NCBI GenBank assembly: GCA_047611865.1
Contig: JBLFWS010000075.1
Span: 1-14,885, forward strand
Length of the DNA stretch: 14,885 nt
Origin: Chlamydiales bacterium
GTDB taxonomy: Bacteria > Chlamydiota > Chlamydiia > Chlamydiales > JBDQID01
Reading direction: 5' to 3'
Shown: positions 5,059 through 6,321 of the stretch, piece after piece
How the letters are laid out: the number at the start of each line of letters is the position of its first letter
Position numbering within the stretch: the stretch's first letter is position 1
Translations under genes and position numbers: made by a program
The notes under the pieces: generated by a model
What the model was told of the DNA's origin: nothing
Database searches by the model: none
The model's input: the letters and a program-made list of their open reading frames with translations, nothing else

Positions 5059-6321
5059 ATGAAGTTATTTTCTAATTACATGAAGGAAAACTACGATTTG
5101 ATTCCTCTTACCAGCCCAAGTGCTAATATTATGCCTGGTGCCATAATGGGAGGTCCAAATAGTCGATGGTCATGGAATAAAGTTCCTATTTTGTCAGAGA
5201 TTTCGATCTTTGCGAATAAAATTCTGAATTACAGAGCAGGATCCAAGTATAGAAATAATAATAAGAGGATACCTGCGAATTATAATATTCAAGAGAAGAC
5301 ATACAAAGATATCTATAAAACGGTAGAAATACCTGAAACATTTAATGTAGCTGTAGATAGCAAAGATAGCAAATTTGGCTCAGCAATTAGAGGTTCTTTT
5401 GGGCAAGTAAGTGGGGCTATAGACGCTCAATTCGAGGATAGCAATATTGCCAGTATAAAGATTACAAATTCATTTAAAGTGACTTTTGCAGATCCGGATT
5501 ATAAAGACACCTTGGCAAAAGAAATTACTTCAGAGATGAAGGAGGACGAGCCCACCAAAAAAAAAGTGAAGCGTAAATATCTGATTACAGAAGTGCATTA
5601 TGCCAGTGGAGTTGATATTACTTTTACTAATGCAAAAATGTTCAAAGGAAGCTGTAATGCCAGAGCGGAACTAGGAACTGGGGTACAAGCTCCTAATATC
5701 GGAATAGAAACCAATTGGGTTACTAAAAGTGTGCTACGTCTTACACAAAAGCAAGATCTAGTGGAGAAACAAAAAATTGTTATGAAAATCGACAGGAATG
5801 TGCAAGAGATGAAGGACAGTGTCCGTAGGTTATCAGAAGCACAACGGAGGGAGGATTTCTCACAAATGGCAGCTGTTATTGAGGAGCTAGATGCTGATGT
5901 TAGGCAGATGGAGGAGGACGTTCTTCAGCTTCTTAATGTCCAGGAACTCCGTGATGACATAAACCGAATTAAAGACGACATTCAAAACATTAAAGATTCA
6001 ATTAGTGATCTGCAGGTGTATGTTCGCATGGTAGAGGCCAGTCTTGCCCAAGACGATGCCATGGCAATGGGGGTTGCAATGGGAGCGGCAGATGATGAAG
6101 ATGAAGAAATAGGAGATGGTGTAAATGCTGACGTTCGGGAGGAGGACATTGCTGATATCTCGAAAGAAGAGGCAGAGAAAAATTTAAAAATAGGGATCAA
6201 TACTTTAAAAAAACACGTAGTAAAATTAGAGGAAGATGTTAGAAAGCAAGGGGACCTTGGTTTGACCAGGATTCCTTTTGCAGTAAGAGGGATCTTTTTA
6301 AACCCTGGTAAGCTTTTTTAA
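5059..6321 (+). CDS. Gasdermin-like pore-forming domain protein with an internal helical insertion
   Basis: AAGGAG RBS. The N-terminal YDLIPLTSPSANIMPGAIM, AQFEDSNIASIKI, YLITEVHYASGVDITF, G/A-rich amphipathic hairpins and terminal IPFAVRGIFL strand follow the order of bacterial gasdermin motifs. Residues ~232-402 are helical/coiled-coil. Confidence 0.7.
   Translation: MKLFSNYMKENYDLIPLTSPSANIMPGAIMGGPNSRWSWNKVPILSEISIFANKILNYRAGSKYRNNNKRIPANYNIQEKTYKDIYKTVEIPETFNVAVDSKDSKFGSAIRGSFGQVSGAIDAQFEDSNIASIKITNSFKVTFADPDYKDTLAKEITSEMKEDEPTKKKVKRKYLITEVHYASGVDITFTNAKMFKGSCNARAELGTGVQAPNIGIETNWVTKSVLRLTQKQDLVEKQKIVMKIDRNVQEMKDSVRRLSEAQRREDFSQMAAVIEELDADVRQMEEDVLQLLNVQELRDDINRIKDDIQNIKDSISDLQVYVRMVEASLAQDDAMAMGVAMGAADDEDEEIGDGVNADVREEDIADISKEEAEKNLKIGINTLKKHVVKLEEDVRKQGDLGLTRIPFAVRGIFLNPGKLF

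What the first reader, a model, noticed from the sequence alone, without database searches (positions are those of the whole stretch)
5752..6264. ~170-aa helical bundle inserted inside the gasdermin fold instead of a C-terminal inhibitory tail
Seen: the second beta-hairpin ends at ...SVLRLTQ (aa ~230), and the expected next strand IPFAVRGIFL only appears at aa 405. Between them lie about four amphipathic helices (aa ~233-263, 266-293, 295-331, 368-397) and a very acidic loop (AADDEDEEIGDGVNADVREED). Only ~6 residues follow the last strand, and the single Cys is C199, so there is no N-terminal palmitoylation Cys. Known: characterised bacterial gasdermins are mostly held inactive by a short C-terminal peptide removed by a protease, and many are N-terminally palmitoylated. 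Inference: this may be a different control architecture, with the insert acting as an internal lock or sensor released by cleavage of the Asp-rich loop (possibly by host caspase-like proteases) or by partner binding.
Basis: partly seen in the sequence, partly recalled or inferred. Interest (0 to 1): 0.85.

Follow-up and report, generated by a model that had tools for sequence, protein, structure and literature searches.

The report
Gasdermin-like protein with internal helical module
A rare bacterial protein that looks like a gasdermin pore-former carries a conserved acidic four-helix module where the usual inhibitory tail should be, which hints at a different way of keeping such a pore switched off, but no reliable 3D model backs this yet.

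Summary
ORF 5059-6321 encodes 420 aa. A beta-rich domain (aa 1-231) is followed by four heptad-patterned helices with a variable acidic loop (aa 232-402 = nt 5752-6264). Then comes an almost invariant DLGLTRIPFAVRG segment, and only 6 residues follow it. Four full-length relatives (53-87% identity) share this layout, and none has an N-terminal Cys.

No family model calls the protein a gasdermin at its threshold. Four weak lines agree that it is one:
- ESM Atlas features and model (TM 0.61 to a bGSDM cluster).
- PADLOC bGSDM (E 0.029).
- NCBIfam prok_gasdermin (E 0.024).
- Foldseek on a poor AF2 model ranks the three solved bGSDMs 1, 3 and 4.

The HMM registers and the published Vitiosangium landmarks place the module after the last membrane "finger" strand (beta8), with the conserved tail as beta9. 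I rate that topology about 0.6. AF2 failed on the beta domain.

The lock role is inferred from conserved charge asymmetry (module -9 to -20, core +5 to +9). Release by host caspases is not supported, because the loop is not conserved. A conserved neighbour carrying HExxHxxGxxH is a candidate protease. Verdict: a new variant of a known kind.

The parts
5048..5052 (+). Shine-Dalgarno (AGGAG) 6 nt upstream of the ATG at 5059
   Evidence: Read directly. It supports M1 as the start rather than M8. The residues before M8 are also conserved in the relatives.
5059..6321 (+). Gene for the 420-aa gasdermin-like protein (P0001)
   Evidence: Relatives.
5059..5751 (+). aa 1-231: beta-rich, basic (net +9) gasdermin-NTD-like domain
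   Evidence: ESM Atlas features 0.94-0.95, and TM 0.61/0.53 over 190 aligned residues to a 'Gasdermin bGSDM' cluster. PADLOC bGSDM E 0.029. NCBIfam prok_gasdermin E 0.024. Foldseek ranks 1, 3, 4 and 7 are bGSDM crystal structures, at non-significant E values.
5308..5355 (+). aa 84-99: candidate finger strand (beta3-like), amphipathic
   Evidence: Alternating faces with mean hydropathy +2.12 and -1.62. I chose the boundaries.
5440..5487 (+). aa 128-143: candidate finger strand (beta5-like)
   Evidence: Faces +1.70 and -0.89.
5572..5628 (+). aa 172-190: candidate finger strand (beta7-like)
   Evidence: Faces +1.42 and -1.15. The window 173-186 ties for the most conserved 14-residue window (0.94).
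5698..5748 (+). aa 214-230: candidate last finger strand (beta8-like), ending in SVLRLTQ
   Evidence: Faces +1.11 and -1.01. AF2 strands at 216-222 and 225-230. The PADLOC bGSDM match ends at the residue equivalent to aa 230.
5752..6264 (+). aa 232-402: acidic helical module (the finding)
   Evidence: Four helices with pLDDT 76-83. Heptad spacing. Net charge -20 here and -9 to -20 in the relatives. Foldseek returns only generic four-helix bundles, best E 6.5e-3.
6052..6159 (+). aa 332-367: variable acidic loop between helices 3 and 4
   Evidence: pLDDT 31-48. Identity 0.23. Length 23-36 aa, D+E 5-14, K+R 0-1 across the 5 sequences.
6253..6300 (+). aa 399-414: conserved tail DLGLTRIPFAVRGIFL, candidate palm strand beta9
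   Evidence: 13 of 16 positions are invariant. The window 399-412 ties for the most conserved 14-residue window in the protein (0.94). One face is hydrophobic (+1.73). The last 6 residues are not conserved (0.07).
3285..4616 (-). Divergent neighbour: 443-aa membrane protein with HEILHNWGFSH (HExxHxxGxxH), candidate zinc protease
   Evidence: The motif occurs once in the six-frame translation, against 0.00085 expected. It is invariant in P0012 and P0013, and HExxHxxDxxH is kept in the distant P0014. There is no Pfam, NCBIfam or PDB match. P0012 and the gasdermin-like P0003 are both listed on a 3913-base contig from the same source.

Best explanation
ORF 5059-6321 encodes a very divergent member of the gasdermin pore-forming fold.

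The first 231 residues supply the short N-terminal helix, the first palm strands and four amphipathic 16-19-residue 'finger' strands. Straight after the last finger strand (beta8, ending at aa 230) the chain leaves the fold. It forms an acidic, heptad-patterned four-helix module (aa 232-400) that contains one disordered acidic loop. It then returns with the near-invariant TRIPFAVRGIFL segment, which I read as the palm strand beta9. The protein ends 6 residues later. It therefore has no C-terminal inhibitory peptide or domain, and no N-terminal palmitoyl-cysteine.

Inferred mechanism: a gasdermin core without an inhibitor kills the cell that makes it. The acidic module most likely replaces the missing C-terminal inhibitor. 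It would pack in cis against the basic membrane-binding and proto-finger face of the core until something removes or opens it. The trigger could be a cut in the exposed loop, with the neighbouring HExxHxxGxxH membrane protein as the nearest candidate, or it could be partner or membrane binding.

Shown: the sequence layout, its conservation, and the charge asymmetry. Supported only weakly: the gasdermin fold and the beta8/beta9 position of the module. Inferred only: the lock function and its trigger.
For: Layout and conservation.

Gasdermin fold:
- ESM Atlas on aa 1-232: features 0.95, 0.94 and 0.94, with 191, 185 and 179 of 256 features shared. Rank 1 is an unannotated 242-aa cluster. In the rank 2 cluster 76% of members carry PF26164, and in the rank 3 cluster 11% do. 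The Atlas model has TM 0.61/0.53 over 190 aligned residues to a 277-aa 'Gasdermin bGSDM' cluster.
- PADLOC bGSDM hits 1 of 6 family members at E 0.029. P0006 aa 174-229 match profile positions 148-202 of 257.
- NCBIfam NF051890 prok_gasdermin hits 1 of 6 members at E 0.024. P0004 aa 138-252 match profile positions 80-192 of 203.
- Foldseek of the AF2 N-domain model against 350,542 PDB chains ranks 7N51, 7N52 and 7N50 at positions 1, 3, 4 and 7.

Position of the module:
- Both HMM matches stop at P0001 aa 227-230, leaving 55 profile positions of the full-length bGSDM model unmatched.
- In the Vitiosangium bGSDM the fingers are 17-18 aa, conserved L211 and F213 lie between beta8 and beta9, and the pore domain ends at about 229-237.
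- The tail begins with I405-P-F407 and has one hydrophobic face.
- The tail ties for the most conserved 14-residue window (0.94), while the last 6 residues are free to vary.

Need for an inhibitor: bGSDMs lacking their C-terminal peptide are toxic to E. coli.

Charge: core +5 to +9 and module -9 to -20 in 5 of 5 sequences.
Against: - No family model reaches significance. NF051890 scores 14.4 bits against a cutoff of 100, and its matched stretch does not pass on its own.
- Pfam gives no gasdermin hit. PADLOC gives none for the window's own protein.
- A sequence search of the PDB finds no gasdermin.
- AF2 does not fold the beta domain: mean pLDDT 49 for the full length and 35 for aa 1-233. The Foldseek hits have E 0.15-2 and TM 0.17-0.27.
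- No model places aa 404-414 in a sheet.
- The domain is 231 residues long, about the size of a complete bGSDM pore domain (Vitiosangium aa 2-229). The core could therefore be complete before the helices.
- bGSDM inhibitory peptides also dock through Phe residues and a short strand, so the tail could be such a peptide.
- The family has only 6 known members besides the window's own, so covariation cannot be used.
- The neighbouring protease-like domain lies between two hydrophobic segments and carries 6 Cys. It may therefore face away from the cytoplasm.
Confidence: 0.45

Rival explanations
1. Two-part gasdermin. aa 1-231 is a complete pore-forming domain. Everything after it is an unusually long helical C-terminal inhibitory region, and its conserved last segment is the equivalent of the bGSDM inhibitory peptide. 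A cut in the acidic loop would then release helix 4 plus the tail (about 55-75 aa), much like a normal bGSDM C-terminal peptide.
For: - 231 residues is about the size of the Vitiosangium pore domain, aa 2-229.
- bGSDM C-terminal peptides bind the core through Phe residues and a short beta-strand, and are preceded by an exposed cleavage loop.
- Published C-terminal regions span 17-67 aa, or a dozen to about 100 aa.
- Mammalian inhibitory domains are helical and about 200 aa.
Against: - Both weak HMM registers leave the last roughly 50 positions of a full-length bGSDM profile unmatched at aa 230.
- The four amphipathic strands use the sequence right up to aa 230, so no room is left for beta9.
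- The tail is as conserved as the best core strand, whereas known inhibitory peptides are described as divergent in sequence.
- There is no linker between strand 224-230 and helix 1.
Confidence: 0.25
2. Exported pore-forming toxin or effector. The protein is not autoinhibited. It is harmless to its producer because it needs a target membrane or receptor, and the helical module serves targeting, oligomerisation or lipid sensing. This rival is about function and is compatible with either topology.
For: - bGSDM-like proteins fused to other domains, encoded without proteases and thought to be cytolysin-like, are described in print.
- No caspase-like, CHAT or subtilase gene lies in the window, and no known defence gene lies next to the ORF.
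- The neighbourhood is full of family-less, coiled-coil-rich ORFs.
- The best, non-significant profile hits of the module are apolipophorin-III lipid-binding bundles, E 0.055-0.07.
Against: - No signal peptide or hydrophobic segment is present.
- No secretion system gene lies in the window.
- The taxon and lifestyle are unknown.
- The apolipophorin hits are at chance level.
Confidence: 0.2
3. Not a gasdermin. The protein is an unrelated beta-rich domain followed by a coiled coil, and the gasdermin signals are noise.
For: - Every gasdermin signal is below threshold.
- AF2 gives no confident fold.
- The Atlas notes that shuffled proteins reach a first hit of 0.95 or more about once in 100, and that none of this was measured for parts of proteins.
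Against: Four methods with different inputs all point to the same small family: language-model features and model, two independently built HMMs hitting two different members in collinear regions, and Foldseek on an AF2 model. All three bGSDM crystal-structure entries that Foldseek lists (7N50, 7N51, 7N52) fall within its top 7 of 350,542 chains.
Confidence: 0.12

Closest known systems
Bacterial gasdermins (bGSDM; Runella, Bradyrhizobium, Vitiosangium; PDB 7N50-7N52)
   Same: A pore-domain-sized beta-rich core of about 230 aa with weak HMM, feature and fold similarity. It has four amphipathic finger strands of bGSDM-like length, and a hydrophobic-x-Phe motif where L211 and F213 sit after beta8.
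   Different: - A roughly 170-aa acidic four-helix module inside the fold (or, on the rival reading, before the tail).
- No 17-67-aa C-terminal peptide after the last strand.
- No N-terminal Cys.
- No caspase-like or CHAT protease neighbour.
- Scores far below the family thresholds.
Mammalian gasdermins (for example GSDMA3, GSDMD): N-terminal domain plus a helical C-terminal domain of about 200 aa
   Same: A helical region of similar size that could mask the pore-forming domain. There is an exposed loop that could be a cleavage site.
   Different: In mammals the helical domain follows a complete N-terminal domain after a cleavable linker and ends the protein. Here helix 1 starts directly after a strand, the disordered loop lies inside the module, and the chain returns to a conserved strand-like segment. 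Neither Pfam Gasdermin nor Gasdermin_C matches.
Gasdermins made of the N-terminal domain only: TrichoGSDM and fungal RCD-1
   Same: No C-terminal inhibitor. They show that cleavage-independent control exists, through a disulfide-linked dimer or a heteroallelic partner.
   Different: They are about 250 aa single domains without any inserted module.
bGSDM-like, cytolysin-like proteins fused to Ig-like beta-sandwich domains (Pseudomonas, Lysobacter)
   Same: A gasdermin-like pore domain combined with an extra domain and encoded without a protease operon.
   Different: Their extra domain is a C-terminal beta-sandwich, not an internal helical bundle.

Membership tests
Bacterial gasdermin (bGSDM; NCBIfam NF051890, PADLOC PDLC02986, Pfam PF26164) | Sequence match to the family model at its threshold | tested here: not met
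   NF051890 scores 14.4 bits against a cutoff of 100, for 1 of 6 members. The PADLOC bGSDM model gives E 0.029 for 1 of 6 members and nothing for the window's own protein. The local Pfam copy gives no gasdermin hit, and I did not see PF26164 in its output.
Bacterial gasdermin (bGSDM) | Gasdermin N-terminal-domain fold (twisted sheet 'palm' plus proto-finger region) | tested here: inconclusive
   The Atlas ESMFold model has TM 0.61/0.53 over 190 aligned residues to a bGSDM cluster. The AF2 models have pLDDT 35-49. Foldseek puts bGSDM structures at ranks 1, 3, 4 and 7, but with E 0.15-2.
Bacterial gasdermin (bGSDM) | Four amphipathic membrane-spanning strands (two hairpins) of about 17-18 aa | tested here: met
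   aa 84-99, 128-143, 172-190 and 214-230 each have one hydrophobic and one polar face. This is at sequence level only, and I chose the boundaries.
Bacterial gasdermin (bGSDM) | Short C-terminal inhibitory peptide after an exposed cleavage loop | tested here: inconclusive
   Only 6 unconserved residues follow the last strand-like segment. On the rival reading, that segment itself would be the peptide.
Bacterial gasdermin (bGSDM) | N-terminal palmitoylated Cys (common, not universal) | tested here: not met
   No Cys occurs in the first 10 residues in 0 of 5 sequences. The paper notes bGSDMs that lack it, for example Gillisia.
Bacterial gasdermin (bGSDM) | Adjacent protease gene (43 of 50 in the founding study, mostly C14 or CHAT) | tested here: inconclusive
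   No C14, CHAT or subtilase gene lies in the window. A divergent neighbour carries HExxHxxGxxH. The word 'metallo' does not occur in the founding preprint.
Bacterial gasdermin (bGSDM) | Forms membrane pores and is toxic once released | not testable with these tools
   Needs expression and liposome assays.
Eukaryotic gasdermin (Pfam Gasdermin plus Gasdermin_C) | Match to the N- and C-terminal domain models | tested here: not met
   No hit at E up to 10 for the N-terminal domain, or at E up to 0.1 for the full length.
Metzincin-type zinc protease (the neighbour, not the finding) | HExxHxxGxxH zinc-binding motif | tested here: met
   HEILHNWGFSH is present and invariant in 3 of 3 close sequences. 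The Met-turn and the fold were not tested, and no family model matches.

The most novel reading that the evidence does not exclude
This would be a gasdermin gated from the inside. An acidic four-helix module is spliced into the beta8/beta9 junction and replaces the C-terminal inhibitor found in all characterised cleavage-activated gasdermins. It would be opened by a dedicated membrane metalloprotease or by a non-proteolytic signal, possibly in a pore-former that a host-associated bacterium uses on foreign membranes rather than for suicide.
Probability: 0.2. Interest if true: 0.85.

Novelty: new variant of a known kind. Interest (0 to 1): 0.6.

Why it matters
All gasdermins whose control is understood fall into two groups. 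They are either inhibited by something attached after the pore domain and removed by a protease, or they lack an inhibitor and depend on dimerisation or a partner. An inhibitory or sensory domain inserted inside the fold would be a third design. It would also show that the beta8/beta9 junction tolerates a large domain, which is useful for engineering switchable pores. The pairing with an uncharacterised HExxHxxGxxH membrane protein would add a new protease class to gasdermin systems. The family is tiny, with 6 relatives found in searches of billions of proteins, so ordinary annotation pipelines miss it.

Tried and rejected
- Complex prediction, with aa 1-233 against aa 386-420 and both given as alignments: the verdict was 'no answer'. 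It scored 0.61, but one control peptide scored 0.45. I do not use it either way.
- AF2 on the full length (mean pLDDT 49) and on aa 1-233 (pLDDT 35) did not fold the beta domain. Foldseek on the full-length model found only generic helical bundles, with 0 matches at E <= 0.001.
- Sequence and profile searches of the PDB found no gasdermin.
- I looked for relatives with and without the module. phmmer over 1.84 billion representatives gave 5 hits: the protein itself, one 156-aa fragment, and 3 matches to the coiled coil only. The word-indexed searches gave 5 and 6 hits, all in the same family. No form without the module was seen.
- Genome contigs gave 0 confirmed relatives of the protein (94 pattern matches) and 0 of the UhpC-like neighbour (34 pattern matches). 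A tblastn of the transposase on plasmids gave no useful taxonomy. A tblastn of the N-terminal domain on plasmids gave no match.
- Tests for a recent mobile insertion found nothing. There are no flanking repeats. The module's GC is 0.42 against 0.36 for the core, but that lies within the range of the other genes in the window.
- The downstream ORF is not a paralogue.
- Literature searches for an inserted or coiled-coil gasdermin, or a chlamydial one, gave no such report in the listings or in the passages I read (searches; passages).
The supplementary tables of the bioRxiv gasdermin preprint could not be seen because they are closed.
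Full report
**What is in the sequence.** The window has one long ORF over the finding: 5059-6321 on the + strand, 420 aa. An AGGAG lies 6 nt before the ATG. The finding's coordinates 5752-6264 are aa 232-402. SVLRLTQ is aa 224-230, IPFAVRGIFL is aa 405-414, the acidic stretch is aa 343-363, and C199 is the only Cys. 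No other ORF of 80 aa or more overlaps the gene.

**The family is real but tiny.**
- The word-indexed search of 5.8 billion proteins gave 5 hits with E <= 0.001 among 4496 candidates. These were the window's own protein and four full-length relatives of 402-431 aa.
- An exhaustive phmmer over 1.84 billion representatives gave 5 hits: the protein itself, a 156-aa fragment (38% identity, aa 3-148) and three matches to the coiled coil only.
- A profile search added nothing: 6 hits among 8000 scored candidates of 85-755 aa.
- The species-representative genome set held no relative: 94 pattern matches, 0 confirmed.
- The four full-length relatives (87, 83, 68 and 53% identity) all have the helices, a variable acidic loop and the tail.
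- I found no version without the module.

**The helical module.**
- AF2 on the 5-sequence alignment gives helices 232-263, 267-291, 295-341 and 369-400, with pLDDT 76-83 in their central blocks. The loop has pLDDT 31-48.
- All four helices have 3-4 hydrophobic spacing.
- Foldseek finds only generic four-helix bundles, best E 6.5e-3 and 0 matches at E <= 0.001. Profile hits in the PDB are at chance level: apolipophorin III, Lpp and GCN4, with E >= 0.055.
- Mean pairwise identity is 0.67, 0.59, 0.64 and 0.73 for helices 1 to 4, against 0.72 for the N-terminal domain and 0.23 for the loop.
- The module is acidic in all five sequences (net -9 to -20), while the N-terminal domain is basic (+5 to +9).
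- No DNA repeats flank the module, and its composition is unremarkable.

**Is the N-terminal domain a gasdermin?** No model says so at its threshold.
- Pfam gives no hit.
- PADLOC gives none for the window's own protein.
- NCBIfam gives none for it.
- Sequence searches of the PDB give none.

Four weak signals agree, however.
- *ESM Atlas on aa 1-232.* Feature scores are 0.95, 0.94 and 0.94, with 191, 185 and 179 of 256 features shared. Rank 1 is an unannotated cluster, rank 2 carries PF26164 on 76% of its members, and rank 3 on 11%. The Atlas's own model aligns 190 residues to a 277-aa 'Gasdermin bGSDM' cluster at TM 0.61/0.53. The tool counts its two searches as one source.
- *PADLOC bGSDM model.* It matches P0006 aa 174-229 to profile positions 148-202 of 257, at E 0.029, in 1 of 6 members.
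- *NCBIfam prok_gasdermin.* It matches P0004 aa 138-252 to positions 80-192 of 203, at E 0.024 and 14.4 bits against a cutoff of 100, in 1 of 6 members.
- *Foldseek on the AF2 model of aa 1-233.* The model is poor (pLDDT 35). Even so, Foldseek ranks the three bGSDM crystal-structure entries it lists (7N51, 7N52, 7N50) at positions 1, 3, 4 and 7 of 350,542 chains. The E values are 0.15-2 and the TM scores 0.17-0.27.

Taken together I put the gasdermin fold at about 0.8.

**Is the module inside the fold?** This is the core of the finding, and it has only indirect support.
- Mapped to the window's protein, the two HMM matches end at aa 230 and aa 227. The module therefore begins where 55 positions of a full-length bGSDM profile are still to come.
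- From passages of the Vitiosangium pore paper (PMC10153256): the four finger strands are 17-18 aa each, conserved L211 and F213 lie between beta8 and beta9, the pore domain is aa 2-229, and the active truncation is 1-237.
- In the window's protein, four segments (84-99, 128-143, 172-190, 214-230) each have one hydrophobic and one polar face. That uses the sequence up to the start of the module.
- The tail starts with I405-P-F407 and continues with a one-sided hydrophobic pattern.
- The window 399-412 ties for the most conserved 14-residue window of the whole protein (0.94), and the last six residues are free to vary (0.07).
- This fits a core strand better than a bGSDM inhibitory peptide, which the founding preprint calls divergent in sequence (10.1101/2021.06.07.447441, passages).

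Against this reading:
- 231 residues is already the size of a whole bGSDM pore domain.
- bGSDM inhibitory peptides also dock through Phe residues and a short strand.
- No model places aa 404-414 in a sheet (pLDDT 24-35).

I rate the insertion topology at about 0.6 and the 'long helical C-terminal region with an inhibitory tail' reading at about 0.25.

**How it may work.**
- bGSDMs without their C-terminal peptide arrest E. coli growth. A producer must therefore hold this protein in check in some way.
- Known alternatives to a C-terminal inhibitor are a disulfide-linked dimer (TrichoGSDM) and a required heteroallelic partner (RCD-1) (PMC12547243, passages).
- Here the only conserved extra element is the acidic module next to a basic core. 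My best inference is that it masks the membrane-binding and proto-finger face in cis.
- The trigger is open. The loop is exposed but poorly conserved. Its length is 23-36 aa, D+E ranges from 5 to 14, and the P0006 loop printed has a single Asp. A conserved caspase-type site is therefore not supported.
- A cytolysin-like role without autoinhibition remains possible. bGSDM-like proteins fused to other domains and lacking protease partners are already in print.

**Surroundings.**
- The divergent upstream gene (3285-4616, - strand, 443 aa) has one strong hydrophobic segment (aa 81-100) by the scan. A second, weaker one near aa 400-420 fell below that threshold and was read by eye. It also has 6 Cys and the motif HEILHNWGFSH.
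- The motif HExxHxxGxxH occurs once in the six-frame translation, against 0.00085 expected. It is invariant in two relatives at 74% identity, and HExxHxxDxxH is kept in a distant 773-aa protein. No family model or solved structure matches.
- Its relative P0012 and the gasdermin-like P0003 are both listed on a 3913-base contig from the same source. This suggests, but does not prove, conserved linkage.
- The founding study found proteases next to 43 of 50 bGSDMs, mostly C14 or CHAT. The word 'metallo' does not occur in that text.
- The rest of the window holds a UhpC-type transporter, an ABC-F ATPase, a split ISNCY transposase and several family-less, coiled-coil-rich ORFs. There are no RNA genes.
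- The organism could not be named.

**Comparison and novelty.**
- The protein works most like a bGSDM, but it fails the family's sequence threshold. It also lacks the N-terminal Cys, and it lacks a C-terminal peptide after the last strand.
- It resembles mammalian gasdermins in having a helical module of 170-190 aa, but the module is not a terminal domain after a linker.
- Six literature searches and passages of a 2024 review (PMC10989679) gave no report of a gasdermin with an internal helical domain. A 2026 paper gives 17-67 aa as the range of bGSDM inhibitory peptides (PMC13475620, sections 5 and 8).
- I file it as a new variant of a known kind. That rests on a fold assignment that still needs a proper profile-profile or structural test.

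Noticed in passing
window 3285-4616 (-): A 443-aa membrane protein with an exact HExxHxxGxxH motif (HEILHNWGFSH), 6 Cys and no family match. It is transcribed divergently from the gasdermin-like gene. Its 74%-identical relative appears to share a 3913-base contig with the gasdermin-like relative P0003.
   Followed up: partly
window 8708-9163 and 9207-10157 (+): An ISNCY-family transposase is split into two ORFs in different frames. They cover profile positions 2-125 and 144-443 of 444. It is probably a decayed or frameshifted IS copy.
   Followed up: partly
window 6422-7492 (+): A 356-aa ORF lies 100 nt downstream and has no family. It has a coiled-coil middle and is not a paralogue of the gasdermin-like protein. 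Its N-terminus begins MGNIFS, which from recall resembles a eukaryotic N-myristoylation motif. This was not tested.
   Followed up: partly
window 5653-5655 (C199): The single Cys lies in the loop between the two candidate strands of the second finger hairpin. It is kept in 3 of 5 family members. The pore paper notes that human GSDMD is palmitoylated at a fingertip Cys.
   Followed up: no
ESM Atlas result for aa 1-232: A 497-aa family-less cluster (50 members, commonest phylum Planctomycetota) matches the domain's model at TM 0.54 by query. Other long gasdermin-like architectures may therefore exist.
   Followed up: no
window 12335-14056 (-), 335-1111 (+), 2555-3244 (+), 7889-8407 (+): Four further ORFs have no significant family match. 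Two of them are coiled-coil-rich, with only low-complexity SMC-like or tropomyosin-like hits. The UhpC-type transporter at 1124-2467 had no close relative in the species-representative genomes.
   Followed up: partly
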